A stretch of 64,000 bases of DNA from an uncultured Rhodospirillales bacterium (GTDB taxonomy: Bacteria; Pseudomonadota; Alphaproteobacteria; CAZRBL01), in contig CAZRBL010000008.1 in NCBI GenBank assembly GCA_964598335.1, forward strand, positions 3,343 through 67,342. The letters are read 5' to 3'. The translations under genes were made by a program, and so were the position numbers. A model generated the notes under the pieces. The model did no database searches and had not been told where the DNA came from. It saw only the letters and a list, made by a program, of their open reading frames with translations. Position 1 is the first letter of the stretch. Every line of letters starts with the position of its first letter. Positions 1 to 27,801 of the stretch are shown in pieces.

Positions 1-1170
1 GGGATCATCGGTTTCGCTGATGCGTTCGGGGACCAGCGGCAGCAAGACAATGAGTTCCAGGGCCGGGTTTTGCTCATGGGCGGCAACCAGCCAGTCGACG
101 ATATCCCGGCTTCGCAGGAACTGATTTTCGACATAGATGAATTGCCGCGCGCCCAGGATCACCTCGCGATAGTTTTCGGCAATTTCCGTCACATCGGCTT
201 TCGGGCCCACGGCCAGCGGAGATTGCCGGTCTTCGGATTGCGTGCGAATGAACGCCGCCGGCACCGAACCGGTGTCATCAACGATAGTGGCAGGATCGAT
301 ATCCTCGAAAGGCGTCAGCGGCGTTTCCGGCAGCGGCTCGATCCCGGCGGGGGCGGTAAAGCCCTCAAGCCGCTCGGCAAAGCTTTCCGTGCCGATATTC
401 CAGCGCGTCCGGAAATGACGCTCGACCTCCTGCGCCAAAGGCCCGTCTATGCGGCAGGCAACATCATGCCAGCCGTTCTCGGAATCATGGTCGGGGCGGT
501 CCAGCCGCTTCGGATCAATGTCGAGACCGCCGAGGAATACCGTGTGGCCGTCGATGATGCAGATTTTCTCGTGATGCGATCCGGGGTGAAGCGGCGCCAG
601 CCAGGCGGGGTCGATCTTGAAGCGGCCGGATTCTTCTCTCACCATGCTCCACAGGCCCGGCATCTCTGCCAGCCGCGACAGGGCCTGCTCCCGTCCCTCG
701 CTTTCGGCGAGCTCGGAAAGCTGTTCGAGAATGCCTTGTAACTTATTGCGCAATACCGGCTGAGCGATGCCGGTGGTCAGCGTACCCGTCTTCGCCTCAT
801 GCAAATCACACTGAATCTGAAAGTGCGATCTGAGCTCGGCGTCGAGGCCAGCGTCGAGGATGGCGGCGCAATGGTTGAACCGACGATAGCTGTACCAGGT
901 GCCGCGATGTTCGCCATTGGCGAAGATCGGGTCGAAATCGCTGAGGATCAGCTTGACTTCGGTACCGCGCCGGACGGCATCGGTCAGCAATGCGCACCAA
1001 TCATCGCCGTCGACCGATCCGGCCTCGCTGATCAGCGGCATCGTTGCATCCACGGTCCAATAGGCCAGATGGATGCTTTCGCTTGCCGAGGCGATGGCTT
1101 CTTCAAGCGCGGCATAGGTTTCCGACCCGGTAATCAGGGGCGTGATGCGGTGACCCGGCTCAAATCTCAC
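1..1170 (-). CDS. Phospholipase D family protein (partial, runs off the window start)
   Basis: Not in the ORF track. Manual minus-strand translation from GTG at 1170 gives VRFEPGHRITPLITGSETYAALEEAI...SHHEKICIIDGHTVFLGGLDI...WHDV...FIYVENQFL. It contains an HxKxxxxD (HKD) motif and the WHD and YxENQF motifs of PLDs, and is open to position 1. The start codon is uncertain. Confidence 0.88.
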   Translation of the reverse strand, partial: MRFEPGHRITPLITGSETYAALEEAIASASESIHLAYWTVDATMPLISEAGSVDGDDWCALLTDAVRRGTEVKLILSDFDPIFANGEHRGTWYSYRRFNHCAAILDAGLDAELRSHFQIQCDLHEAKTGTLTTGIAQPVLRNKLQGILEQLSELAESEGREQALSRLAEMPGLWSMVREESGRFKIDPAWLAPLHPGSHHEKICIIDGHTVFLGGLDIDPKRLDRPDHDSENGWHDVACRIDGPLAQEVERHFRTRWNIGTESFAERLEGFTAPAGIEPLPETPLTPFEDIDPATIVDDTGSVPAAFIRTQSEDRQSPLAVGPKADVTEIAENYREVILGARQFIYVENQFLRSRDIVDWLVAAHEQNPALELIVLLPLVPERISETDDP

Positions 1171-1221
1171 AGAATCTCGCAGAATATTCGATTTGCATAA
1201 AAGGATCGTGTCGTGAAAGCT

Positions 1222-1246
1222 AATGCGCGACACCGCATTGGGTTCC
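1222..1246 (-). promoter_or_regulatory. Candidate EcfG/RpoE2 (general stress sigma) promoter for the PLD gene
   Basis: Minus strand reads GGAAC-N16-CATT about 50 nt upstream of the GTG, matching the alphaproteobacterial GGAAC-N16/17-CRTT consensus. Confidence 0.5.
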
Positions 1247-1297
1247 CCAACAAGCGGTGAAGGGCGGCGGCCCGATCCGGAACCAACGGAGGCATTC

Positions 1298-3955
1298 ATG
1301 ACAGAGCGAGCCCTGTCTGCATCGCTTGCAATTCTTTTTCTCGCCACGCTCGGCATGGCGCAGGCGAGTGAACCGCTCTCTCATTATCTGCCGCCGGCGA
1401 CGAGCTATGACGCGGCGATCACCGCGCCCGATGCCTATCTCGGCCATCCGGTCGATGCCCCCTTGCCTGAACACAGCCAGGTGATCGGTTATCTGCGCTT
1501 GCTTGCCGAGCAGTCGGATCGGCTGTCGATTGAAACCATCGGTCACAGCCACAAGCGTAAGCCGATTGTCGCGCTGGCGATCACCGCGCCGGATAATCAG
1601 GCCCGCATCGATGCAATAAGGCGCAATAATCGTGCGGTGTTCGAGAGTGAGGGAGCCCGGGAGCCGGGCGATGACGCGCCCTTGATCGCCTGGGTCGGCT
1701 TCGGGGTACACGGCAACGAGACCAGCGTCGTGCCGTCTGCCATGCTGATCGCCTATCACTATGCGGCGGCGGAGGGCGAAGCGGTCGAAGAGTTGCTTGC
1801 GGATACCGTGATCCTGCTGGTCGGCACGCTGAACCCTGACGGCTATACGCGCGCCGCAACCTGGCACAACATGAATGCCGGCGTGGTCGCGGTAGAAGAC
1901 CCGGCGCACCGCGAACATCGCGATGCCGGGCTGTGGCCGGGCGGGCGCAGCAATCACTACTGGTTCGACCTCAACCGGCAATATGTCCCGGCCAGCCAGC
2001 CCGAGGCGGCGGCGGCGCTGCGCCTGAAACATGCCTGGAAGCCGCATGTCCTGCTGGACATGCACGAAATGACGATCGGCAACCCGTATTATTTCTCGCC
2101 CGGCGAGCCGGCGATGAACAATCCGATGATCCAGCCCGAAACGCTGGCGCTGCAATACACCTTGTCCGACGCCATTCAGGGCTTCCTTGACGAAGACGGC
2201 GAGCTGTACTGGACCGACGCCTTTTTCGACAGTTTCTCGCCGGCGATGGCATCGACCTATCCGATGCTGGCGGGGAGCGTCAGCCTGCTGCTGGAAAATG
2301 CCGGTTTCGCCGGCCGCGCCATCGAAACCCAGAACGGCGTGCAGACCATGGCGGCCCGCCTGCGCCGGCATACCCGGGTCGTGCTGGCCTTCATCGACGG
2401 GCTGGCCGATCAGCGGCAGGCCGTGATCGACCATCAGGCGGCGTTTTATCGTGCGGCGTTGGCCGATGCCGGGCGTGATGATGTGGCCGCCTATGTGTTT
2501 GATGCCGGCGGCGATCAGGCCCGTCTCGCGCGCTTTATCGAGCTGCTGTCGATCCATGATATTGCGGTCTATCCGCTGACCCGGGATGTCACCGGCGATG
2601 GCCGCGCGTTCAGCGCCGGCGAGGCCTATGTCGTACCGTTCGAGCAGCCGAATTACCGGCTGATCGCTTCGCTGCTGCAGCCGCGGCTCGATTATGACAG
2701 CGCGCGTTTTTATGACAGCTCGACCTGGACGCAGCCGCTGGCCTTTGGCCTCAATCATGCCGCGCTGGACGCGATGCCGGCGGTCGCTGAGGAGGCGGTG
2801 GCAACACTCGATATCGCGGTACCGCCGCCGCCGCGCTCGGATTACGCCTATGCCTTTGCCTGGCAGGGCTATTACGCGCCCTATCTCGCCAATAAGCTCA
2901 CCAAGGCGGGCGTGCGTCTGCAGGTCTTGCCCGAGCCCGCCACGGTGCTGACACCCGATGGCGAGGCGGCTATGCCGGCCGGCAGCATGGTGGTGCTGCC
3001 GCCGCGCGTTCAGGACGTCGAGGCCGACGAAATCCATCGCATCCTCGCCGAGCACGGCGCCGCCAGGGGGGTGACGGTGCACGCCGTTACCAGCGGCCGG
3101 ACGCCGCAAGGTCCGGATTTCGACAATATCCTGATCGAGCCGATCGTGCAGCCCACAGTGTTGCTGCCGGTGGGCGGTTCGATCCGCAGTACCGATGCGG
3201 GGGAGCTGTGGCATCTGCTCGATCATGAAATGCAGCTCGATGTGACGATCCGGACGATCACGGCGCTGGGCCAGACGGATTTGTCGCGCTACACGCATAT
3301 CGTCATGCCCGACGGCAGCTATGGCGAGCTGGATGAGGCGGTGACCGGCGCGCTGACCGGCTGGGTGCGCGGCGGCGGGACGCTGATCGCGTTCAAGCGC
3401 GCGGCGGTCTGGGCAGTTGAGCAGGGGCTGATCGAGGTGCCGGTCGTCAGCGACAAGGGCAATTACGGTTTTGCCGGCCCGCAGCGCCTGGCCGGCGCCG
3501 AGCCGGAAGAGACCGAATTCGGCGAGGATTATGAAGCGCCGGAGCGGCAGGCCTATGCCGATAAGGCGGAACAGGAAGCGCGGCAGGTGATCCGCGGCGC
3601 GATCTTTGCCGTCGATCTCGATCTCAGCCATCCCATCGCCTTGGGCTATGATGAGGCGCTGCTGCCGACCTATCGCGAAACGCAGATCGTTTTCGACCGG
3701 CCGCCGAACCCCTATAGCGCGGTTGCGGTCTATACGGATGAACCGCTGATGTCCGGCTTTGTCTCTGACGAGAATCTGGAAATGATCAGCGGCTCGGCGA
3801 TGCTGATCGCCGACCGGGTCGGGCGCGGCGCGGCGGTGCTGTCGACCAGCAATCTCAATTTCCGCGCCAACTGGCTGGGCAGCTCCAAGCTGCTGATGAA
3901 CGCCCTCTTCTTTTCCAAGGTGATGAAGGCCGAGGGCCGCCGGTTTTCAGAGTAA
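1298..3955 (+). CDS. Secreted M14-family zinc carboxypeptidase
   Basis: GGAGG RBS before ATG 1298; signal peptide; HGNE, LNPDG, NHYWFDLNR and DMHE zinc/substrate motifs. Confidence 0.88.
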   Translation: MTERALSASLAILFLATLGMAQASEPLSHYLPPATSYDAAITAPDAYLGHPVDAPLPEHSQVIGYLRLLAEQSDRLSIETIGHSHKRKPIVALAITAPDNQARIDAIRRNNRAVFESEGAREPGDDAPLIAWVGFGVHGNETSVVPSAMLIAYHYAAAEGEAVEELLADTVILLVGTLNPDGYTRAATWHNMNAGVVAVEDPAHREHRDAGLWPGGRSNHYWFDLNRQYVPASQPEAAAALRLKHAWKPHVLLDMHEMTIGNPYYFSPGEPAMNNPMIQPETLALQYTLSDAIQGFLDEDGELYWTDAFFDSFSPAMASTYPMLAGSVSLLLENAGFAGRAIETQNGVQTMAARLRRHTRVVLAFIDGLADQRQAVIDHQAAFYRAALADAGRDDVAAYVFDAGGDQARLARFIELLSIHDIAVYPLTRDVTGDGRAFSAGEAYVVPFEQPNYRLIASLLQPRLDYDSARFYDSSTWTQPLAFGLNHAALDAMPAVAEEAVATLDIAVPPPPRSDYAYAFAWQGYYAPYLANKLTKAGVRLQVLPEPATVLTPDGEAAMPAGSMVVLPPRVQDVEADEIHRILAEHGAARGVTVHAVTSGRTPQGPDFDNILIEPIVQPTVLLPVGGSIRSTDAGELWHLLDHEMQLDVTIRTITALGQTDLSRYTHIVMPDGSYGELDEAVTGALTGWVRGGGTLIAFKRAAVWAVEQGLIEVPVVSDKGNYGFAGPQRLAGAEPEETEFGEDYEAPERQAYADKAEQEARQVIRGAIFAVDLDLSHPIALGYDEALLPTYRETQIVFDRPPNPYSAVAVYTDEPLMSGFVSDENLEMISGSAMLIADRVGRGAAVLSTSNLNFRANWLGSSKLLMNALFFSKVMKAEGRRFSE

Positions 3956-18933: not shown

Positions 18934-19612
18934 CGCGTAGCTCGCTCAGACGCAGCTTTTGGCGCCCATCGGCATCGAAATTGGTGGGGTCAAGCCAGGC
19001 CTCGAAACCGGCTTCGATCATCGGCCATTCGTCGTCGATGATCGAGAACCAGGCGGTATCGCGGTTCCTGCCGCGCACGACCATGTCGTTGCGGAAGGTG
19101 CCTTCATAGGTAAAACCGAGGCGCAGCGCGGCGCGCCTCGATTCCTCATTGGCCGCATTGCATTTCCACTCATAGCGGCGATAGCCGAGATCGAAGACGT
19201 GGCTTGCGAGCAGATAGTGCGCCTCGGTCGCGGCGCGACTGCGCTGCAGGGCCCGACCGTGAATGACACAGCCGATTTCGACGCTGCCATGTTCGGGCCG
19301 CAGCCGCATATAGCCGGCGGTCCCCAGCGCCTCGCCGCTCTCCCTGGCGACAATCGTCATCACGCGCCACGCGCCGCTGTCCTGCTTTGCGCTGAGCGCT
19401 GCACCGAGCGGATCGCCGCTGTCGAAAGGTCCGATCGGCAGATAGCGCCAGATGGCGGCATTCTCCGGCCCGGTGAGATAGCGCGTCAAACCCCGGCGGT
19501 GACGCGGCCAGTCGAACGGCTCCAGGCAGATTTCTTCGCCGCTGATCACCGTATCGCCGGGCAGAGCCCGAGGGGTGAAGCCGGCAAGCGGGTCAGCGAA
19601 CGCTGTCGACAT
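18923..19612 (-). CDS. GNAT acetyltransferase, RimJ/RimL-like
   Basis: YRRYEWKCN...SRRAALRLGF.YEG.FR...GRNRDTAWFSI. Confidence 0.9.
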   Translation of the reverse strand: MSTAFADPLAGFTPRALPGDTVISGEEICLEPFDWPRHRRGLTRYLTGPENAAIWRYLPIGPFDSGDPLGAALSAKQDSGAWRVMTIVARESGEALGTAGYMRLRPEHGSVEIGCVIHGRALQRSRAATEAHYLLASHVFDLGYRRYEWKCNAANEESRRAALRLGFTYEGTFRNDMVVRGRNRDTAWFSIIDDEWPMIEAGFEAWLDPTNFDADGRQKLRLSELRDAA

Positions 19613-20237
19613 AGGTGATATCCTCGGGCAGGGAGAAAACCGCCGGATCGACCGGTCCGATATCGATATCCATCGCCGTCATGACCCGTGCCCGGCCGTA
19701 AAGCCGCGCCATGGTCTCAATCGCAATACCCCGCCAAAGACAGGCTTCCGAAAGCGGGCCGTCGGGGTCACCGGTCAGCAGGCGCCGGTAAACGGCGCAG
19801 GGCCGACCGTCAATCATGCGGGTTTCGCCGGAGGCGGCAAAGCCATTCAGCCGATACATGGCGACAGAGAGCAATTCGCCCTCGGCCGCGCTTTGCTCGG
19901 CGATCCGTGCCGCCGGGGGGAAGGGCCGTTGCTTCGCCTCACCGGTCTCAAGGTTGACCTCGGTAATTGCCTCGGGCGTGAACAGCAGCAGAATGCGGGT
20001 TTCCTTGCCGCTGGACGGCGTCAGGATCACCTGATGCTGCGCCCGCGTGCGGCCCCAATCGGTCCAGTAGAAGGTCGTGCGGATTTCCGTCAGACCGTTA
20101 TCATTGACGGTATCATAGCGTCCCTGCTCAACGCCGTAGACCGCGCCGGCCGGCGGCTCGGGCGTGTTCTGTGCACCGGTTGCGCCGTTCAAAGCGGTGA
20201 TGAGAACCAGCCCGAGGGCGGCGGCGATATTGTGCAT
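19593..20237 (-). CDS. Exported protein, possible LolA-like/DUF4412 beta-sheet fold
   Basis: Signal peptide; GETRMIDGRPC motif and C-terminal VDPAVFSLPED. Confidence 0.6.
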   Translation of the reverse strand: MHNIAAALGLVLITALNGATGAQNTPEPPAGAVYGVEQGRYDTVNDNGLTEIRTTFYWTDWGRTRAQHQVILTPSSGKETRILLLFTPEAITEVNLETGEAKQRPFPPAARIAEQSAAEGELLSVAMYRLNGFAASGETRMIDGRPCAVYRRLLTGDPDGPLSEACLWRGIAIETMARLYGRARVMTAMDIDIGPVDPAVFSLPEDITYVDSVR

Positions 20238-20273
20238 GGATGGGATCCGGTGTTCTCTGGTGCGGTGAGCAGA

Positions 20274-20792
20274 ATGATCCGCTATTTCGCCTATGGCTCA
20301 AACATGCTGAGCCGCCGATTGCAACGCCGGACCGCGTCGGCGCAGCCCCTGGGACCGGCCCTGTTAAGCGGCTATCGGCTGGTCTTTACCAAGCCCGGCT
20401 CGCGCTGCGGCAGCGGGAAATGCGGCATCGTCATCGACCAGGCCGCTACTGCCTGTGTGCATGGTGTGCTGTTCACGCTTGATCATCGGGAACTCGAGCT
20501 GCTCGACCGGTTTGAAGGCGTCGGCTACGGCTATCAGCGCGGCGAGGTCACGGTCCGGCCCGATGACGACAGCCCCAGCCTGACCGCAATGACTTATCTG
20601 CCGACACGGCTCGATCCCGATGTTCTGCCCTTTGACTGGTATCGCGATCTTGTCATTGCCGGAGCGCGTGAGCACGGTTTGCCCGCATCCTATATCGCTG
20701 ATCTGTCCGCCGTTGCCGCCAAGCCCGATGAGGACCGCGCGCGAGCCACCGCGCACCGTGCCTTGATCCCAAGCCGCTCTGCCGCCGTGTAA
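20274..20792 (+). CDS. Gamma-glutamylcyclotransferase family protein
   Basis: MIRYFAYGSNM, VHGVLF and LDRFEG motifs. The ORF-track start at 19575 is over-extended. Confidence 0.88.
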   Translation: MIRYFAYGSNMLSRRLQRRTASAQPLGPALLSGYRLVFTKPGSRCGSGKCGIVIDQAATACVHGVLFTLDHRELELLDRFEGVGYGYQRGEVTVRPDDDSPSLTAMTYLPTRLDPDVLPFDWYRDLVIAGAREHGLPASYIADLSAVAAKPDEDRARATAHRALIPSRSAAV

Positions 20793-21784: not shown

Positions 21785-22513
21785 ATGCAACGAATATCGA
21801 TGGCCGTGACGGCCGCACTGCTCTTGGTGACGACCGAGGCCGCAGCGAATGTGATCGTCATTGATGATTTTAGCGTTCCAGGCGGCGTAAACCGCAGCGG
21901 CGCGAATACAATTAGCGGAAACGGTGTCCAGAGCGACACCATATTCGGTGGCCGCCGTGGACAAGGCGTCGAAAACAGTAATCTTGGCGGCGGATCTTGG
22001 CTTGAGATCAGCTGGAATCGTGCCGATGCTGGAGAGCTTTTCTTTACGACCAATCGTGACGGTCGCATGCGGCTCAGCTATGGCGGCGGTGCCTTTGCGC
22101 TCGGCGATGTAACCGGGCTGGGTGTCAATGCCTTTGAAATCGGGGTGGAGGCGATGACAACGAGTACGGCCTTCGACTTCTCCGTCGAAATCTGCGACGA
22201 TCAGGATCGATTGTCCTGTTTTGACGCGGCCATCGAAGGGGTGTCGCCGACCAGCCCTGTCGCGGGCGGGCCGCCCTTTACGCTGACGATCCCGTTCTCG
22301 AGTTTCGCCAGCGAGGCGGACTTCACCGATGTGCACTGGCTGTTCTTGTATGCCCAACCGGTTGACCCAGGCACTTCAAACTTCAGCGAGCTGGTCCTGT
22401 CCGAATTTCAATTCGCCAGCGTCGCGGAAGTCCCGTTGCCGGCGCCCTGGGCGCTGATCGCGGTCGGCGGAGCTGCTTTGGCCTTGATGCGGCGCCGCAC
22501 GCTTTCGAGCTGA
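21785..22513 (+). CDS. PEP-CTERM/VPLPA-CTERM sorted surface protein
   Basis: Signal peptide; C-terminal VPLPA + hydrophobic helix + RRR. Confidence 0.85.
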   Translation: MQRISMAVTAALLLVTTEAAANVIVIDDFSVPGGVNRSGANTISGNGVQSDTIFGGRRGQGVENSNLGGGSWLEISWNRADAGELFFTTNRDGRMRLSYGGGAFALGDVTGLGVNAFEIGVEAMTTSTAFDFSVEICDDQDRLSCFDAAIEGVSPTSPVAGGPPFTLTIPFSSFASEADFTDVHWLFLYAQPVDPGTSNFSELVLSEFQFASVAEVPLPAPWALIAVGGAALALMRRRTLSS

Positions 22514-22590: not shown

Positions 22591-23346
22591 TCAGAGCACC
22601 TCTAGCATGTCCGCCACCAGCGGGTGGCGGACGATATCCTTCTGATTCAGCCGGACGACCGCAACGCCTTCCAGCGGGTCCAGCCGCCGGGCGATATCCG
22701 AAAGGCCGGACAGCCCGTCCAGCAGATCGGACTGATCAGGGTCGCCGGTGACCACCATCGTCGCGTTCCAGCCGAGCCGGCTGAGCATCATTTTGAGCTG
22801 CTGATAAGTGCAGTTCTGTGCCTCGTCTATGACGACAAAGGCATTGTTCAGCGTACGGCCGCGCATGAAGCCGATCGGCGCGATTTCGATATCGCCGTCG
22901 GCGATCGCCTGCTTGACCCGCTTGATGCCCATGCGGTCGCTCAGCGCGTCATAGAGCGGCCGCAGATAGGGGGCCATCTTCTCATTCATGTCGCCCGGCA
23001 GATAGCCGAGACTTTCACCGGCTTCGATCGCCGGGCGCGAGAGGATGATACGCTCAACCTCGCCGTCCTCGAGCGCATCCACGGCGGCGCTGATCGCAAG
23101 ATAGGTCTTGCCGGTGCCTGCCGGTCCTATGGCGAGGCTCAGATTATGCTGGTCGATGGCATCGAGCAGTTGCTGCTGGTTTTCGCTGCGCGGCCTGACC
23201 CGCCGCAGATAGCTTTGATCGCGGTGCTCCCGCACATGTTCCTTGGCCAGGGGGTCCCACGGCATCGCCGCGGCGCCGTTCGGCGGGTCGAGGCGATGGA
23301 TGGTAGCCGATTGCTGTTGACGGGCTTTGCTGCGGCGCTTGGCCAT
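22591..23346 (-). CDS. phoH: PhoH family ATPase (short form)
   Basis: GPAGTGKT, LGYLPG, MRGRT, DEAQN, GDPDQSD and DIVRHPLV motifs; AGGAG RBS before ATG 23346. Confidence 0.93.
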   Translation of the reverse strand: MAKRRSKARQQQSATIHRLDPPNGAAAMPWDPLAKEHVREHRDQSYLRRVRPRSENQQQLLDAIDQHNLSLAIGPAGTGKTYLAISAAVDALEDGEVERIILSRPAIEAGESLGYLPGDMNEKMAPYLRPLYDALSDRMGIKRVKQAIADGDIEIAPIGFMRGRTLNNAFVVIDEAQNCTYQQLKMMLSRLGWNATMVVTGDPDQSDLLDGLSGLSDIARRLDPLEGVAVVRLNQKDIVRHPLVADMLEVL

Positions 23347-23407
23347 AAGCGAGGTCTCCTGGTTGAGGATTAGAAAAGAGCGATGCGGGTGAGACGGGCT
23401 GAGCAAC

Positions 23408-23431
23408 AAAAAACCCGCCGAAAAGGCGGGT
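23408..23431 (-). terminator. Intrinsic terminator in the phoH 5' leader
   Basis: Minus strand ACCCGCC-ttttc-GGCGGGT followed by a T run, about 60 nt upstream of the phoH start. Confidence 0.75.
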
Positions 23432-23557
23432 CGACAAGGCACGGATTACGGGAGCGCGCAGCGATGCCGGGCAGGGCGGCGATGAGATCAGCGGCGGCTG
23501 GACCATTGGTCCTGATTCCCTCGACAAGCGGCTGATAAGGGCGCGAATCACATCGAA

Positions 23558-23586
23558 AAGGTACCGACTGGGGGACTCGCTGTCGA
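23558..23586 (-). promoter_or_regulatory. Candidate sigma70 promoter for the phoH leader
   Basis: TCGACA-N17-TACCTT on the minus strand. Confidence 0.5.
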
Positions 23587-23617
23587 GGCAAAAAAGCCGG
23601 AGTCTCAGCCTTTTGCC
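23587..23617 (-). terminator. Probable terminator of the hydrolase-fusion gene
   Basis: Minus strand GGCAAAAGGC...GCTTTTTTGCC hairpin about 40 nt after the stop. Confidence 0.55.
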
Positions 23618-23654
23618 GCCTGTTTTGTCTAAACGACTCTCACCATTGGAGAAT

Positions 23655-25511
23655 TTACAGCTCGAGGCGGTTGCCGCCGTTACTGCCCGGCGGCTGCATC
23701 GGCTGCAGCGTCTTTTCATTATCCGTCAGATCGTCGGATTTACCCGGGGCGGTGATTTTGTGGAGCAGTTTCTGGCCCCCGCTGACCAGCGCATCGCGGA
23801 GCGAATCAACACCGTTTTGAAGGCTGAGATCAACGGCCAGCGAATGCGGCAGCAGATTGGGGAAGATAAAGCGCGACAGGCTGATGCCGGCGGCCTTGGC
23901 CACGTCATAGACGAAGTGATTGCAGTTGCGCTTGGTCAGAATGTAGTCGGGGCGGTCGATGTCCCAGTCGCCGACCTTGGCATAGGCGCGGTCGAACTGA
24001 TCGCGGCTCAGCGGGTAGCGCCGGCTGATCGTCGTATAGCGCATGGTCTCATCGACCAGCCCGCCCGGATAGGGCTCGGTGATCATCCCGATATCCGACA
24101 TCTTCACGGCGTGCGGGATGTTATGCTCGGGGTATTTTGACGGGTAGATGCGCGGCAGCGGGTGGAAACCCTTGGTGATGCGGATTTTCGATTTGCGGTC
24201 GACCAGGGTGATGAAGCTGTGCCCTTTCGAGGCAACGTCCTCGGGCGGGCGAGACTTTGAAAACGGATACTGGCTGCCGCAATCGACATGGACGATCATC
24301 TCGTAATCGGGTCGTCCGTTGATCCGCGTTTGCTTGCCGCCCGGCACCGCATCGATATCGCCATGCACCGGTGCCAGCGGCGGGATCGAGCGGTTTTCAA
24401 GCATCGGCTCGTCGGCGCCGAGCACCTCTGCCGAGGCATCGCCGGCCTGGCGGCGCAAGCGCATCAGATGCGACAGACGGTTCTTCAGTCCCGTTCCGGG
24501 CGCGGTCAGCCCGTTGCGGACCGTCTCCGCCGTGGTGCTGACAAATTCGGTGAAGACGTCGAGCCAGCCTTTGCGGAAGCGGTCGGCTTCGATCCAAAGC
24601 TCATGTTTGGCGCCGGGCACCCGATGCAATTTCGCATTCGGCATCAGCCGGGCAGCGCGTTCCTGCGCCTCTTTTGAAACCAATTGTTCATTGCCGGGCA
24701 TGGCGATCATGACCGGGGTCTCGATGCCTTTCAGCCGGTTTTCCTGATTGATCAGGTCAATCGAGCGGAAGGCGCTGTCAAGCCAACCATAAGTCATGCC
24801 GCCGATCCGCAGATCAGGGCGGTGAGAATACCAGGCGGTTTCCAGCCCGTCGCGGACCGGGTCGTGTGAGTGAATGCTGTCGGCGGTGCCGCGCTTGTCG
24901 CTCGGTTCCCACGGGCCGGCACCGGGGATATAGCGACCGCCGAGACCGAGCCTTACCGCCATTCGCGCCAGCGGGCGGGCCAGTACCCGCTGCCAGCCCG
25001 TCAGGCCGATATCCAGCATCGGCGCGGTCATGGCGGCGAAATCGAAACGGCCCGGATGCTCCTGCAGAAACCGGATCAGACAATGGCCGCCGAAGGAATG
25101 CGCCTGGCCGAAGACCGGACGCCCGTTTACTGCCGGCTCGACGATTTCGGTCATGAATTTGTCGAGATCGCCGACCTGTTGACCGAAATCCGTTGCGTGA
25201 GCCTTATTGCTGTCTTCAAGCAGCCTTTCGGACCCGCCCTGACCGCGCCAGTCGAGGATAAAGACCTCGATATCGCGCGCCAGCATATCGCGGATCGTCT
25301 CGAAATATTTTTCGCTGAATTCAGCAAATCCCGGCAGGATCACACAGACATTGCTGCCGCCGCCCGGCGGCGCGGCATGGCCGTAGCGCAGCCGGACGCC
25401 GTCATCCGCGGCAAAATCGGCAAACTGCCACCCGTCGGGCGCACGAAACCGCGGCTCGATCATCGGCTCGTTCCGGCTGTTGGCGTCAGTGGTGGTTGCG
25501 GGCGGTGTCAC
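23655..25511 (-). CDS. Lysophospholipase L2 (PldB)-like alpha/beta hydrolase fused to a C-terminal papain-like domain
   Basis: PGFAEFSEKY, DWRGQGGS, AHSFGG nucleophile elbow and GAKHEL; C-terminal GHSFITL...YILTKRNCNHFV. The start may be 25463. Confidence 0.85.
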   Translation of the reverse strand: MTPPATTTDANSRNEPMIEPRFRAPDGWQFADFAADDGVRLRYGHAAPPGGGSNVCVILPGFAEFSEKYFETIRDMLARDIEVFILDWRGQGGSERLLEDSNKAHATDFGQQVGDLDKFMTEIVEPAVNGRPVFGQAHSFGGHCLIRFLQEHPGRFDFAAMTAPMLDIGLTGWQRVLARPLARMAVRLGLGGRYIPGAGPWEPSDKRGTADSIHSHDPVRDGLETAWYSHRPDLRIGGMTYGWLDSAFRSIDLINQENRLKGIETPVMIAMPGNEQLVSKEAQERAARLMPNAKLHRVPGAKHELWIEADRFRKGWLDVFTEFVSTTAETVRNGLTAPGTGLKNRLSHLMRLRRQAGDASAEVLGADEPMLENRSIPPLAPVHGDIDAVPGGKQTRINGRPDYEMIVHVDCGSQYPFSKSRPPEDVASKGHSFITLVDRKSKIRITKGFHPLPRIYPSKYPEHNIPHAVKMSDIGMITEPYPGGLVDETMRYTTISRRYPLSRDQFDRAYAKVGDWDIDRPDYILTKRNCNHFVYDVAKAAGISLSRFIFPNLLPHSLAVDLSLQNGVDSLRDALVSGGQKLLHKITAPGKSDDLTDNEKTLQPMQPPGSNGGNRLEL

Positions 25512-25557
25512 GGTTCGGTCTTTGCTGTCCGGCTCGGGCGCGCTATCTCTTGCATCG

Positions 25558-27801
25558 ATGATGCGGTCAAAAACGAGGCGCGGTTTGCGTTTCCTGTCTC
25601 AATCTCTTCTGTTCCTGCTTGCCGGGCTGGCCGTTGGGACATGGTTCGCGCCGCATGGCTCGGCCCAGAGTCTACCTTTCTCTGCCGAGATGAACAGCCC
25701 TGAGGTCGCGCAGACAGAGAATGTCACGGCGCGGCTGATCGTCGGAAAGGCGTCGGTACAGCCTGGAGAGACCATTCTGATCGGTCTCCATAAGACGATC
25801 CGGGAGGGCTGGCACACCTATTGGAAGAACCCCGGCGACTCAGGTTTGCCTACCACAATTCGCTGGCAGGTACCAGAAAATGTAACAATTGGCGATATTC
25901 TCTGGCCTGCACCCCAGAGGAAGCCGTATGGGCCCTTGGTGAATTACGGTTATGCGGGCACCGTCATCCTGCTCAGCGAGCTGACGGTTCCGGCCGATGC
26001 GGTACCCGGCACGGTGCTGTCGATCAATGCCGATGCCGAATGGCTGGTCTGCGAAGAAATCTGCATTCCCGAGGCCGGAACCGTGAGCCTCGAGCTGCCG
26101 GTGACGGAGCGCCTGGCGCCGGCAACGGAATGGGCTGCGGAAATCGCCGCGGTAAACGCCGCCCTGCCGAAGCGCCATGCGGCGCCGCAAGCGCGTTTCG
26201 CGGCCACCGATGCGGCGCTGACCCTGGAGATCGATCGGTCACAGGGCGATTTTTCCGACCGTCTCGACGCCGCCATCGACGTCTGGTTCTTTCCGGCTGC
26301 CTATGGGGTGATCGATCACGCGGCGCCTCAAATCGTCAATGCGCTGCCCGGCGGCCCGCTCCAGATCGAGGTGGCGCGCGGCACCGGCATGGCGCTGGGC
26401 GCCGAAACCCTTGACGGCGTGCTGGTCATCGAGACCGAGCAGGGCCGTCAGGGCTACACCGTTACCGCGACAGCTGTCGACGGTAGCGCGCTCGCCGGAC
26501 CGCCGCTGGCGATGCCGGGGGGCAGCGGGGGCGGCGAAAGCTTCGGGCTGGCACAGGCGGTGCTGTTCGCGATGCTGGGTGGTATCCTGCTCAATCTCAT
26601 GCCCTGTGTTTTTCCGGTGCTGTCGATGAAGGCGCTGAGCCTTTGCGCGCATGGCGGACGGGACGGCGCCGGCGACGGCTCGGCGATGCGCGCCAGCGGC
26701 CTCGCCTACACGGCAGGGGTGCTCGCGACCTTCGCGCTGGTGGCGGTCATCCTGATCGGTTTGCAGGCCAGTGGCCAGGCGGCCGGCTGGGGGTTCCAGC
26801 TGCAATCGCCGGTCTTCGTGACCGTGCTGATCTATGTGCTGTTCGCGCTCGGGCTGAACCTGGCCGGGCTATACGAGATCGGCGCCCGGATGATGGGCGT
26901 CGGTGAGACATTGACGCGCAAGGACGGGCTGAGCGGATCGTTCTTTACCGGCGCGCTGGCGGTGATTGTTGCCACGCCCTGCACCGCGCCGTTCATGGGT
27001 TCGGCCGTGTTCTACGCCCTGACGCAACCCTGGCCGTTCACCCTCGCCGTTTTCCTGGCGCTCGGCCTCGGCCTCGCTTTGCCGTTCCTTCTGCTCGCCT
27101 TAGTGCCCGGTCTGGCGGCGAAACTGCCGCGTCCGGGGCCGTGGATGGACCGGTTCAAGCAATTGCTGGCCTTTCCGATGTTCGGCGCCGCAGTCTGGCT
27201 GGTCTGGGTACTGGCGCAGCAAACCGGCGCCAACGGGGTCGGCGCGGCTCTGGTCGGCTGCGTGCTGATCGCCTTCGCGATCTGGGCCTGGCAGGCGGCA
27301 CGCGGCGCGTCGGGCGGCTGGCGGGTTTCCGCCGGGGGGGCGGCGGTCGTCGCCCTGGTCGGCGCAGCGGCAGCCGTCCAGGCCAATCAGGTCCTGCCCG
27401 CACTGGCGGCGACGGGGGTCGACCGGGCCGAGGCGAGCGACGGCCTGTGGCAGCGTTTCAGCCGCGCCAAGCTTGAAAGCCTCCGCGCGGAAGGCCGCGC
27501 CGTATTCGTCAATATGACGGCGGCATGGTGCATTACCTGCAAGGTGAATGAGCGTGTGGCGTTGAGCGGCGACGCCTTTGAGACGCTGCTCGGCGAGCAT
27601 GAGATCACCGCGCTGAAGGGTGACTGGACCAATCGCGATCCTGAAATCAGCGCCTTGCTGGCCGATTTCGACCGTGCCGGCGTGCCGCTTTACGTGCTCT
27701 ACCCGCCGGCCGGCAGTGCGGTGCAGGGACCGATCCTGCTGCCGCAATTGCTGACCCCGGATCTGGTCGCAGCGGAATTCGCCCGGCTTCGAGAAACGTA
27801 A
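25558..27801 (+). CDS. dsbD: DsbD-family thiol:disulfide interchange protein
   Basis: GWHTYWKNPGDSG, CEEIC, LNLMPCVFPVL, ATPCTAP and thioredoxin-like WCITC. Start uncertain. Confidence 0.92.
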   Translation: MMRSKTRRGLRFLSQSLLFLLAGLAVGTWFAPHGSAQSLPFSAEMNSPEVAQTENVTARLIVGKASVQPGETILIGLHKTIREGWHTYWKNPGDSGLPTTIRWQVPENVTIGDILWPAPQRKPYGPLVNYGYAGTVILLSELTVPADAVPGTVLSINADAEWLVCEEICIPEAGTVSLELPVTERLAPATEWAAEIAAVNAALPKRHAAPQARFAATDAALTLEIDRSQGDFSDRLDAAIDVWFFPAAYGVIDHAAPQIVNALPGGPLQIEVARGTGMALGAETLDGVLVIETEQGRQGYTVTATAVDGSALAGPPLAMPGGSGGGESFGLAQAVLFAMLGGILLNLMPCVFPVLSMKALSLCAHGGRDGAGDGSAMRASGLAYTAGVLATFALVAVILIGLQASGQAAGWGFQLQSPVFVTVLIYVLFALGLNLAGLYEIGARMMGVGETLTRKDGLSGSFFTGALAVIVATPCTAPFMGSAVFYALTQPWPFTLAVFLALGLGLALPFLLLALVPGLAAKLPRPGPWMDRFKQLLAFPMFGAAVWLVWVLAQQTGANGVGAALVGCVLIAFAIWAWQAARGASGGWRVSAGGAAVVALVGAAAAVQANQVLPALAATGVDRAEASDGLWQRFSRAKLESLRAEGRAVFVNMTAAWCITCKVNERVALSGDAFETLLGEHEITALKGDWTNRDPEISALLADFDRAGVPLYVLYPPAGSAVQGPILLPQLLTPDLVAAEFARLRET

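What the first reader, a model, noticed from the sequence alone, without database searches (positions are those of the whole stretch)
23655..25511. Lysophospholipase-like hydrolase fused to a papain-like (permuted NlpC/P60-type) catalytic domain
Seen: the first ~330 aa are a complete PldB-like alpha/beta hydrolase (DWRGQG, AHSFGG, AKHEL). After a linker, the same frame carries ~170 aa with GHSFITL...GFHP...PGGLVDE...YILTKRNCNHFVYDVAKAAG, then a low-complexity tail (QPMQPPGSNGGNRLEL). Known: His-before-Cys order with NCxxF marks permuted papain-like enzymes (LRAT/HRASLS acyltransferase-phospholipases, PPPDE peptidases, Lnb/DUF4105-type acyltransferases, some RHS toxin tips). PldB homologues are normally single-domain. 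Inference: a bifunctional lipid deacylase/transacylase or an effector-like enzyme. I do not recognise this architecture.
Basis: partly seen in the sequence, partly recalled or inferred. Interest (0 to 1): 0.72.

Follow-up and report, generated by a model that had tools for sequence, protein, structure and literature searches.

The report
Lysophospholipase fused to papain-like acyl-hydrolase
One real gene in an uncultured microbial-mat bacterium joins a PldB-type lysophospholipase to a rare His-Cys "permuted papain" domain whose nearest solved relatives attack membrane lipids, so it probably strips or moves both fatty acids of a phospholipid.

Summary
Window 23655-25511 (-) is one open 618-aa frame. 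Residues 17-335 are a PldB-like alpha/beta hydrolase (Pfam Hydrolase_4 E 2.5e-34; lysophospholipase L2 model matched end to end but below its cut-off), with Ser139, Glu275 and His303 in place.

Residues about 401-587 match no Pfam, NCBIfam or PHROGs family above cut-off. They fold confidently (pLDDT 88.6) into the permuted NlpC/P60 papain-like fold. The best solved match is the V. cholerae T6SS effector TseH (Z 11.5). The next eight are YiiX, DeSI/PPPDE, Aichivirus 2A, a B. cereus cysteine peptidase, CLN5, a Euglena complex chain, MARTX RID and PLAAT4. His431 and Cys530 are invariant in 30 of 30 relatives.

The fusion is not an artefact. A 599-aa relative has the same architecture, with 63% and 57% identity in the two domains and 20% in the linker. 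It is rare: the only proteins found with both domains are the window's own and that relative.

My best reading (0.5) is a cell-internal two-step lipid deacylase or transacylase. The main rival (0.25) is an exported lipid-targeting toxin. This is a new architecture built from two known catalytic kinds.

The parts
23655..25511 (-). Whole gene: 618 codons plus TAA stop. GTG start at 25511; the alternative ATG at 25463 gives 602 aa.
   Evidence: (P0002)
24507..25463 (-). Residues 17-335: PldB-like alpha/beta hydrolase domain (lysophospholipase L2-like).
   Evidence: Hydrolase_4 E 2.5e-34, residues 55-310. NF008019 131.5 bits, residues 32-328 on model positions 34-330 of 335, cut-off 362. pLDDT mostly above 90. 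63% identical to P0003.
25095..25097 (-). Ser139 codon, the putative nucleophile in AHSFGG.
   Evidence: Invariant in 11 of 11 aligned PldB-like proteins; codon checked.
24687..24689 (-). Glu275 codon, the putative catalytic acid (Glu or Asp in homologues).
   Evidence: Column read from the alignment; codon checked. The assignment as catalytic acid is inferred from its position after the strand.
24603..24605 (-). His303 codon, the putative catalytic His in AKHEL.
   Evidence: Invariant in 11 of 11; codon checked.
24312..24506 (-). Residues 336-400: poorly conserved, probably flexible linker.
   Evidence: 20% identity to P0003 with 15 gap columns. pLDDT below 50 over 357-398. GC3 still high.
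23751..24311 (-). Residues 401-587: permuted NlpC/P60 (papain-like) His-Cys domain, closest to TseH; the family has no name.
   Evidence: AlphaFold2 pLDDT 88.6, pTM 0.85. VIA-align Z 11.5 to 6v98. Foldseek probability 0.99. Profile against PDB 6v98 E 0.0057. 57% identical to P0003.
24219..24221 (-). His431 codon, the putative catalytic His; first residue of a beta-strand.
   Evidence: Invariant in 30 of 30. Strand 37-44 of the domain model. Codon checked.
23922..23924 (-). Cys530 codon, the putative nucleophile in RNCNHF; first residue of a helix.
   Evidence: Invariant in 30 of 30. Helix 136-146 of the domain model. Aligned to the NC motif of TseH. Codon checked.
23658..23750 (-). Residues 588-618: low-complexity, weakly conserved tail.
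   Evidence: 27% identity to P0003; pLDDT about 30.
23412..23432 (-). Terminator-like hairpin with a T-run, about 220 nt downstream of the stop; probable 3' end of the transcript.
   Evidence: Consensus scan, 8 pairs of which 6 are G-C; sequence read. This is a pattern match only.

Best explanation
This is a genuine single-polypeptide enzyme with two active sites that works on fatty-acyl esters of membrane glycerophospholipids inside the producing cell. The C-terminal permuted NlpC/P60 domain (His431, Cys530) takes one acyl chain from a diacyl phospholipid as an S-acyl-cysteine intermediate. It then releases the chain as phospholipase A, or passes it to an acceptor as an acyltransferase, leaving a lysophospholipid. 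The N-terminal PldB-like domain (Ser139, Glu275, His303), tethered by a flexible ~65-residue linker, removes or transfers the remaining acyl chain. The detergent-like lyso-intermediate is thus cleared where it forms, giving a phospholipase-B-like overall reaction or a transacylation. Shown here: one continuous conserved gene, both folds, and catalytic residues present in both domains. Inferred: the lipid substrates, the order of the two steps and the intracellular site of action.
For: The gene is real and conserved. There is one open frame with coding GC3 throughout. A second assembler's contig of run X1 spans 23400-25700 with 0 differences; this is probably the source sample, so it is independent of the assembler only. 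P0003 (599 aa) has the same architecture, with 63% and 57% identity in the two domains against 20% in the linker.

The N domain is PldB-like end to end, with Ser139 and His303 invariant in 11 of 11. It is the only match to the lysophospholipase L2 model in this 99%-complete genome, so it looks like the resident pldB-type gene and not an import. GC content is like that of its neighbours.

For the C domain, the top nine structural hits include TseH, YiiX, DeSI, Aichivirus 2A, CLN5, MARTX RID and PLAAT4, with Z from 11.5 to 5.5; the next row is 3.6. His and Cys are invariant in 30 of 30.

Published biochemistry supports lipid substrates. Permuted NlpC/P60 members are described as lipid-directed. 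Tox-Act1 cleaves PG and PE to lysophospholipids, and TseH showed phospholipase activity in a liposome assay (PMC12994826, section 11 read in full, sections 12-13 as passages). E. coli PldB hydrolyses 2-acyl-GPE and transfers its acyl group to PG (PMC4666226, passages). So one domain type makes what the other consumes.

There is no signal peptide or membrane segment by my reading; the highest 19-residue hydropathy is below 1.0. No T6SS sheath or VirB4 family was found in the genome.
Against: Nothing has been tested biochemically. The lysophospholipase L2 model scores 131.5 bits against a cut-off of 362, so this is not an E. coli PldB equivalog. A paper passage reports that the S. meliloti PldB homologue acts as a palmitoyl-CoA thioesterase (PMC7779409, passage citing Sahonero-Canavesi 2015). 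TseH's phospholipase activity depended on the assay, and TseH was earlier proposed to be a peptidase (PMC12994826, passages).

Relatives of the C domain occur in toxin-like settings: eCIS_core fusions in 2 genomes, a weak match in an RHS protein tip, and secreted forms. The neighbouring genes (PhoH, DsbD, redoxin, RNR small subunit) have no link to lipid metabolism. The full-length model gives no confident packing of the two domains (pTM 0.56, linker pLDDT below 50). Only two such proteins are known, so the selective value of the fusion is weakly sampled.
Confidence: 0.5

Rival explanations
1. Exported lipid-targeting toxin or effector. The chemistry is the same, but the protein is delivered to a competitor or host cell, where phospholipase A plus lysophospholipase destroy its membrane.
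For: The nearest solved fold is the T6SS effector TseH. The Atlas's nearest clusters are TseH-like and IcsB-middle-domain proteins. Family members are fused to the eCIS_core domain in G056 and G227. One weak match (E 2e-4) is the tip of an RHS protein. Some members have signal-peptide-like N-termini (my reading). Members are multi-copy in small genomes, one of which has a neighbouring TLC ATP/ADP transporter.
Against: The own genome (99.2% complete) gave no hit to the T6SS sheath family or to VirB4. eCIS_core was not found either, but that search's controls were silent. There is no signal peptide, no recognisable delivery domain and no obvious immunity gene; a terminator-like site follows the gene and the next gene is phoH. 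The N domain is the genome's only PldB-like gene. Composition is native.
Confidence: 0.25
2. The C-terminal domain is a peptidase, amidase or de-modifying enzyme (PPPDE/DeSI-like isopeptidase or NlpC/P60-type cell-wall amidase), not a lipid enzyme. The fusion then couples unrelated activities or merely tethers them.
For: The only Pfam trace on the window's own domain is PPPDE Peptidase_C97 (E 0.059). DeSI-1 scores Z 6.8, and three PPPDE chains appear in the profile search. TseH was first proposed to be an endopeptidase (PMC12994826, Discussion passage).
Against: The PPPDE score is far below cut-off (13.7 against 29.2 bits). TseH at Z 11.5 stands well above DeSI. The permuted branch is described as lipid-directed, and Tox-Act1 and TseH hydrolyse phospholipids (PMC12994826). 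The fusion partner is a lipid or acyl-ester hydrolase. The protein appears cytoplasmic, so peptidoglycan would be out of reach.
Confidence: 0.12
3. An acyl-thioester cycle rather than phospholipid breakdown. The Cys domain acylates a protein or small-molecule acceptor (as Lnb, IcsB and RID do), and the alpha/beta-hydrolase domain works as an acyl-CoA or acyl-protein thioesterase that supplies, edits or reverses that acylation.
For: A passage reports that the S. meliloti PldB homologue hydrolyses palmitoyl-CoA (PMC7779409). 8 of 18 family members give weak Lnb_N hits (best E 2.7e-4). MARTX RID scores Z 5.6 and IcsB_M clusters score 0.95. That IcsB and RID are N-epsilon fatty acyltransferases is my recollection.
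Against: All Lnb_N and IcsB signals are below family thresholds. Lnt is present elsewhere in the genome, so no replacement lipoprotein N-acyltransferase is needed. The protein has none of the membrane segments expected of an Lnb-type enzyme. No acceptor candidate is apparent in the neighbourhood.
Confidence: 0.1
4. Artefact: two genes joined by misassembly or sequencing error, or a high-GC read-through frame.
For: The genome is a metagenome-assembled draft of 90 contigs. High-GC read-through frames do occur: the 633-aa PldB frame in G025 is one. The only run holding the stretch is probably the source sample.
Against: P0003, from another assembly and only 55% identical, has the same continuous two-domain frame. 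The C-terminal half has its own homologues and a confident fold. GC3 is coding-like throughout. A second assembler reproduces the stretch without any difference.
Confidence: 0.03

Closest known systems
TseH (V. cholerae VCA0285, PDB 6v98; Pfam TseH PF25218, called DUF6695 in the paper)
   Same: It is the best structural match to the C domain (Z 11.5, rmsd 3.6 over 134 residues; Foldseek probability 0.99). It is also the only PDB sequence-profile hit below E 0.01, aligned on the NC...F cysteine motif. It shares the His-before-Cys order and has published phospholipase activity in a liposome assay (PMC12994826).
   Different: The window's domain does not hit the Pfam TseH model. The model hit none of 401 genomes of this class, the own genome included, though the controls for that search were silent. 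Sequence identity is 13-17%. TseH is a stand-alone T6SS effector with an immunity gene, whereas here the domain is fused to a PldB-like enzyme in a genome where no T6SS sheath was found.
Tox-Act1 (Salmonella T6SS effector, permuted NlpC/P60; PMC12994826)
   Same: It belongs to the same superfamily branch and has catalytic His and Cys in the same order (H43 and C151 there; positions 37 and 136 of the domain here). It cleaves PG and PE to lysophospholipids, which are exactly the substrate class of a PldB-type partner.
   Different: I held no Tox-Act1 sequence or model, so clade membership was not tested. Tox-Act1 acts in the target cell's periplasm and has a membrane immunity protein; nothing of that kind is seen here.
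PldB / lysophospholipase L2 (NCBIfam NF008019; Pfam Hydrolase_4)
   Same: The N domain aligns over model positions 34-330 of 335. It has the DWRGQGGS block and the Ser and His positions, and is 29-46% identical to nine single-domain PldB-like proteins aligned with it (one search lists 32-49% for its single-domain hits), many of which their sources name 'lysophospholipase'.
   Different: It scores 131.5 bits against the equivalog cut-off of 362. It has AHSFG instead of a G-x-S-x-G first glycine. It carries a ~280-residue C-terminal extension that 60 of 62 relatives lack.
LRAT / PLAAT (HRASLS) acyltransferase-phospholipases
   Same: Both have the permuted papain fold, and PLAAT4 scores Z 5.5. 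Both have an NCxHF-type cysteine motif (that PLAAT has it is my recollection). The family has dual phospholipase A1/2 and acyltransferase chemistry through an acyl-cysteine, as described in PMC12994826 section 11.
   Different: The structural score is low and there was no sequence-model hit. The second histidine is not conserved: position 450 is H, Y, N, S, G, W, F or T in relatives. There is no C-terminal membrane anchor.
Lnb / DUF4105 (Pfam Lnb_N), the Bacteroides lipoprotein N-acyltransferase
   Same: 8 of 18 family members give weak Lnb_N hits. It is in the same permuted superfamily, and the paper places it as sister to Tox-Act1 (PMC12994826 section 11; PMC11573676 seen as listing and abstract only).
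   Different: All hits are below the cut-off, and the window's own domain has none. Lnb is a periplasm-facing membrane protein. This genome has a canonical Lnt.
PPPDE / DeSI and CLN5
   Same: DeSI-1 scores Z 6.8 and CLN5 Z 5.9. PPPDE chains and Peptidase_C97 give weak hits on the cysteine motif. That CLN5 is a lysophosphatidylglycerol transacylase (BMP synthase) is my recollection and would parallel a lyso-lipid role.
   Different: All scores are below thresholds. These are eukaryotic families, and no catalytic equivalence was tested.

Membership tests
Pfam Hydrolase_4 / alpha/beta hydrolase fold | HMM score above the gathering cut-off over the full domain | tested here: met
   119.1 bits against a cut-off of 27, residues 55-310 on model positions 6-239 of 239.
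Lysophospholipase L2 PldB (NCBIfam NF008019 equivalog) | Score at or above the curated equivalog cut-off | tested here: not met
   131.5 bits against 362, although the alignment covers model positions 34-330 of 335. The domain is PldB-like, not an E. coli PldB equivalog.
Lysophospholipase L2 PldB (NCBIfam NF008019 equivalog) | Catalytic Ser, acid and His of the alpha/beta hydrolase triad present | tested here: met
   Ser139 and His303 are invariant in 11 of 11. Residue 275 is Glu here and Glu or Asp in homologues. The roles of these residues are inferred from position.
Lysophospholipase L2 PldB (NCBIfam NF008019 equivalog) | Hydrolysis or transfer of the acyl chain of lysophospholipids | not testable with these tools
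   This needs an enzyme assay. A paper passage says a rhizobial homologue acts on palmitoyl-CoA instead (PMC7779409).
Permuted NlpC/P60 (papain-like) superfamily | Conserved catalytic His preceding the catalytic Cys in the sequence | tested here: met
   His431 and Cys530 are invariant in 30 of 30 aligned relatives.
Permuted NlpC/P60 (papain-like) superfamily | Papain-like fold with Cys at a helix N-terminus and His on a strand, matching solved permuted members | tested here: met
   Model pLDDT is 88.6. The helix at 136-146 starts at the Cys and the strand at 37-44 starts at the His. The top nine VIA-align hits score Z 11.5 to 5.5. I recognise eight of them as permuted papain-like proteins and did not identify the Euglena chain 8iuf_E7.
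Permuted NlpC/P60 (papain-like) superfamily | His and Cys side chains juxtaposed in the active site | not testable with these tools
   Model coordinates are not exposed to scripts, so no distance could be measured.
Pfam TseH (PF25218) | HMM hit above the cut-off | tested here: not met
   The window's domain gave no hit at E <= 5. 1 of 18 relatives hit at E 0.086. 0 of 401 genomes hit, the own genome included, with silent controls.
Pfam TseH (PF25218) | T6SS context with an adjacent immunity gene | tested here: not met
   The own genome has no VipB/TssC hit. The neighbours are PhoH and DsbD.
PPPDE (Pfam Peptidase_C97) | HMM hit above the cut-off | tested here: not met
   13.7 bits against 29.2, covering only 20 residues around the Cys.
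Lnb_N / DUF4105 | HMM hit above the cut-off, with membrane segments | tested here: not met
   The window's domain gave no hit. 8 of 18 relatives hit; the one hit whose score was printed (L002, 18.5 bits) is below the 22.2-bit cut-off, and the best E-value is 2.7e-4. There is no hydrophobic segment.
Tox-Act1 clade | Sequence or profile membership in the clade defined in PMC12994826 | not tested
LRAT / PLAAT | Structural and sequence match including the second conserved His | tested here: inconclusive
   PLAAT4 scores Z 5.5. The candidate second polar residue (position 450) varies among relatives.

The most novel reading that the evidence does not exclude
The fusion works as a natural 'Rosetta stone'. 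It would show that TseH/Tox-Act1-type permuted NlpC/P60 domains, known so far as weapons, also have a housekeeping role. Here that role is as the first step of a self-contained intracellular phospholipase B or lyso-lipid transacylase, in which a tethered PldB domain consumes the lysophospholipid the Cys domain makes. Such an enzyme could dismantle or remodel the cell's own phospholipids (for example to make acyl-PG- or BMP-like lipids, or to recover phosphorus) without a build-up of lytic lyso-intermediates.
Probability: 0.3. Interest if true: 0.7.

Novelty: new variant of a known kind. Interest (0 to 1): 0.55.

Why it matters
Both halves belong to known catalytic superfamilies, but I found the combination in only two proteins: the window's own and one 599-aa relative, whose cluster holds 2 member sequences. 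The searches were a word-indexed search of 5.8 billion clusters and a full HMMER pass over 1.84 billion representatives. I found no paper describing it.

The substrate of TseH-type permuted NlpC/P60 domains is still debated, peptide or lipid. A natural fusion to a lysophospholipase-type enzyme is independent genomic evidence for the lipid side, and it offers a non-toxin member that could be studied biochemically.

It also defines an unnamed small family, with invariant His, Gly, Cys and Pro. The family occurs as stand-alone, multi-copy, eCIS_core-fused and possibly RHS-tip proteins, and could be added to domain libraries. The practical weight is moderate, because the host is an uncultured mat bacterium and nothing has been assayed.

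Tried and rejected
**Searches for more fused or split forms**
- The word-indexed search for shorter proteins with residues 395-590 found none of 113 candidates at E <= 1e-3.
- With P0003 as query, genome contigs gave 54 pattern matches and no relative. Metagenome contigs gave one locus, a single-domain PldB-like gene at 39% identity.

**Hits discarded**
- P0064 (1069 aa, 10 stretches) was dropped as a repeat-protein false hit.
- The 633-aa PldB frame in G025 was rejected as read-through over an opposite-strand gene that I read as inositol-monophosphatase-like, without a test.
- Two ORFs that I picked wrongly for L026 and L027 spoiled alignment A3. They were replaced in A4.

**Ideas tested and dropped**
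- Lnt-replacement idea: rejected, because a canonical lnt is present (319 bits).
- Delivery systems: no VipB/TssC and no VirB4. eCIS_core was not found, but that search's controls rang nowhere.

**Structure and binding**
- Complex prediction for the N domain against the C domain gave 'no answer', which is no evidence either way.
- The full-length AlphaFold2 model used only 2 rows for the C half, so it models that half poorly.
- The His-Cys distance could not be measured because no coordinates were available.

**Reads**
- No RNA holder was listed.
- Runs X2 and X3 give no real cover. X3's two 22-base pieces and its 'joint' are chance matches from another contig.

**Libraries and earlier notes**
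- PHROGs and NCBIfam hold no family for the C domain.
- Rfam found nothing in the window.
- The fold of the 3' untranslated stretch is unremarkable (z -2.1).
- The scan's earlier findings returned nothing.

**Paper supplements**
- Of PMC12994826 I saw only four passages and part 16 of 115 of file 4. The rest may list further relatives or architectures.
Full report
**Observation**

The window carries one uninterrupted ORF at 23655-25511 on the minus strand. It is 618 codons from a GTG start, or 602 from the ATG at 25463 that a public gene call uses. GC3 is 0.63-0.89 in every 60-codon block, the linker included. No 19-residue stretch is hydrophobic enough for a membrane segment, and by eye there is no signal peptide. 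GC content matches the surrounding DNA.

**N-terminal half**

- Pfam Hydrolase_4 matches residues 55-310 at E 2.5e-34.
- The NCBIfam model for lysophospholipase L2 (PldB) aligns residues 32-328 to model positions 34-330 of 335. The score is 131.5 bits against an equivalog cut-off of 362. The domain is therefore PldB-like, not an E. coli PldB equivalog.
- In an alignment with ten relatives, Ser139 (AHSFGG), His303 (AKHEL) and the DWRGQGGS block are invariant. Residue 275 is Glu here and Glu or Asp elsewhere.
- This gene is the only match to the L2 model in its 99.2%-complete genome.
- Single-domain PldB-like genes occur in 21 of 61 genomes sampled from the same class. That count includes the own genome and G040, which is flagged unpublished.
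- All those frames are 320-460 aa, apart from the own gene and one 633-aa frame in G025. I rejected the G025 frame as read-through over an opposite-strand gene.

**C-terminal half**

- No Pfam, NCBIfam or PHROGs model reaches its cut-off. The only trace is PPPDE Peptidase_C97 on 20 residues around the cysteine (E 0.059).
- A full HMMER pass over 1.84 billion representatives gave 16 hits at E <= 1e-3: P0003, one spurious repeat protein, and 14 small proteins of 153-326 aa.
- After adding genome-derived relatives, a 30-sequence alignment has four invariant columns: His431, Gly448, Cys530 and Pro555. There is also a mostly acidic pair at 487-488.
- AlphaFold2 on the 18-row alignment gives pLDDT 88.6 and pTM 0.85. 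The Cys is the first residue of a helix and the His the first residue of a strand.
- Foldseek's only meaningful hit is TseH, PDB 6v98 (E 0.016, probability 0.99, TM 0.48/0.51).
- The Foldseek-independent search puts TseH first: Z 11.5, rmsd 3.6 over 134 residues.
- The next rows are YiiX (6.9), DeSI-1/PPPDE (6.8), Aichivirus 2A (6.7), a B. cereus cysteine peptidase (6.4), CLN5 (5.9), a Euglena complex chain (5.8), MARTX RID (5.6) and PLAAT4 (5.5). The list then drops to 3.6.
- Profile searches of PDB sequences return only TseH (E 0.0057) and three PPPDE chains (E 0.17-0.69), all aligned on the NC..F motif.
- The ESM Atlas's nearest clusters are TseH-like (0.96, 0.95) and IcsB-middle-domain (0.95).
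- The family itself is not Pfam TseH, PPPDE or Lnb_N by their own models. I could not measure the His-Cys distance because coordinates are not exposed.

**Is the fusion real?**

- P0003 (599 aa, from another assembly) is 55% identical over 95% of the query and has the same two domains in one frame.
- Identity by segment is 63% in the PldB-like domain, 57% in the papain-like domain, 20% in the linker, and 13% and 27% in the two tails. This is the pattern expected when both domains are under selection in a genuine two-domain protein.
- A contig built by a different assembler from run X1 spans 23400-25700 with no difference. X1 is from a microbial-mat metagenome and is probably the source sample, so it is not independent reads.
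- I put the artefact reading at about 3%.

**How rare is it?**

- Of 62 hits to the whole protein, 60 are single-domain (339-456 aa) and two are fused: the own gene call and P0003.
- A profile search restricted to proteins of 572-2000 aa found only those two among 5891 candidates.
- In 401 genomes of the class, 12 have the C-domain family. Only the own genome has it in a long PldB-containing frame.
- These searches have stated limits (word index, representative clustering, sampling). The correct statement is 'two found', not 'two exist'.

**What the relatives of the C domain look like**

- Stand-alone proteins of about 180-270 aa. There are up to 5 copies in one ~2-Mb genome, 3 in another of the same family, and a tandem pair in G118.
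- Proteins with signal-peptide-like N-termini (my reading).
- Fusions behind an eCIS_core domain in G056 and G227.
- One weak match (E 2e-4) at the tip of an RHS-repeat protein.
- One copy sits near a TLC ATP/ADP transporter gene, which hints at an intracellular lifestyle for that lineage.
- This is the profile of a domain often used as a secreted or injected enzyme, and it is the main support for the toxin rival.

**Published context**

- It shows that Tox-Act1 cleaves PG and PE to lysophospholipids, dependent on His43 and Cys151.
- It reports TseH phospholipase activity in a liposome assay at pH 8.9 but not in the mass-spectrometry assay.
- It notes that DUF4105 is the Bacteroides lipoprotein N-acyltransferase Lnb.
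- PMC4666226 (passages) describes E. coli PldB as hydrolysing 2-acyl-GPE and transferring its acyl group to PG.
- PMC7779409 (passage) adds that a rhizobial PldB homologue has palmitoyl-CoA thioesterase activity.
- In the part of supplementary file 4 of PMC12994826 that I read (part 16 of 115), one permuted-NlpC/P60 homologue without a Pfam domain is flanked by two Hydrolase_4 genes. This is a single anecdote of the two kinds as neighbours. I did not tally the file.
- My searches found no paper describing the fusion.

**Mechanism**

- One domain type is documented to make lysophospholipids from PG and PE, and the other to consume them. My best reading (0.5) is therefore a tethered two-step enzyme.
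- In step one, Cys530 and His431 remove or transfer one acyl chain through an acyl-cysteine intermediate.
- In step two, Ser139, Glu275 and His303 remove or transfer the second chain, so the membrane-damaging lyso-intermediate does not accumulate.
- An intracellular site is inferred from four observations. There is no export signal. The genome lacks T6SS sheath and VirB4 hits. The N domain is the genome's only PldB-like gene. There is no immunity-like neighbour: a terminator-like hairpin follows about 220 nt after the stop, and then comes phoH.
- Against this reading, there is no assay. The neighbours (PhoH, DsbD, redoxin, RNR small subunit) say nothing about lipids. The full-length model shows no confident inter-domain packing (pTM 0.56).
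- The rivals are an exported toxin (0.25), a peptidase or de-modifying C domain (0.12), an acyl-thioester or protein-acylation cycle (0.10) and an artefact (0.03).

**Verdict**

This is a new architecture (a new variant of known kinds) that includes an unnamed family of the permuted NlpC/P60 superfamily. It is found so far in two proteins. Interest is moderate (0.55). It would interest people working on TseH/Tox-Act1-type effectors and on bacterial lysophospholipid turnover, and it can be tested directly with ordinary mutant and lipid assays.

Noticed in passing
window 23412-23432 (-) and 22591-23442 (-): A strong terminator-like hairpin (8 pairs, 6 G-C, T-run) lies inside the 5' end of the longest PhoH ORF. 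The real phoH start is therefore probably the internal Met (MAKRRSK...), and the fused gene has a ~220-nt 3' untranslated stretch. That stretch has no Rfam match and an unremarkable fold (z -2.1).
   Followed up: partly
window 25480-25511: The longest ORF of the divergent DsbD-like gene (DsbD_N + DsbD_TM + Thioredoxin_7) overlaps the 5' end of the fused gene by 32 nt. Its signal-peptide-like stretch begins about 26 codons later, so its true start is probably downstream.
   Followed up: no
window 21785-22513 (+): A 242-aa ORF with a signal-peptide-like N-terminus and a C-terminus that looks like a PEP-CTERM sorting signal (VPLP...hydrophobic...RRR). It has no Pfam hit at E <= 1e-4. The PEP-CTERM reading is mine and untested.
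   Followed up: no
window 19575-20792 (+) and 19593-20237 (-): The 405-aa plus-strand ORF matches GGACT/AIG2 only in residues 237-377, so its first ~230 codons are probably not coding. The opposite-strand 214-aa ORF with a signal-peptide-like start may be the real gene there; it has no Pfam hit.
   Followed up: no
L039 (G025:C4) 1360-3261 (+): A 633-aa 'PldB' frame that looks like another fusion is a high-GC read-through. Its tail overlaps a 267-aa opposite-strand ORF that I read as inositol-monophosphatase-like, without a test.
   Followed up: yes
L002/L014, L024, L027, L029, L030 (G018); L015, L026, L028 (G198); L017 (G329): One family of ~2-Mb genomes carries 1 to 5 stand-alone paralogues of the His-Cys domain, about 235-260 aa with basic C-terminal tails. 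One copy lies near a TLC ATP/ADP transporter gene, which hints at an intracellular lifestyle and effector-like use.
   Followed up: partly
L003/L016 (G056:C2) 1444-2502 (-) and L018 (G227) 838-1908 (+): 352- and 356-aa proteins combine an eCIS_core (HELTHVVQQ) domain with this His-Cys domain at the C-terminus. In G056 the next gene looks ClpV/ClpB-like by eye (untested).
   Followed up: partly
L023 (G164:C6) 1393-3174 (-): The C-terminal tip of an RHS-repeat protein (2282-aa open frame), after a DPxG-type motif, weakly matches the family profile (E 2e-4). It has a His...Cys pair in the same order.
   Followed up: partly
L013/L025 (G118:C6): Two paralogues of the family (238 and 245 aa) sit in tandem, next to Smr-domain and MltA genes. 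One of them is the same protein as representative P0067 in the stretches compared.
   Followed up: no
PMC12994826 supplementary file 4, part 16: In a Competibacteraceae assembly, a 217-aa permuted-NlpC/P60 homologue without a Pfam domain is flanked by two Hydrolase_4 alpha/beta-hydrolase genes. This may be an unfused counterpart of the architecture found here.
   Followed up: no
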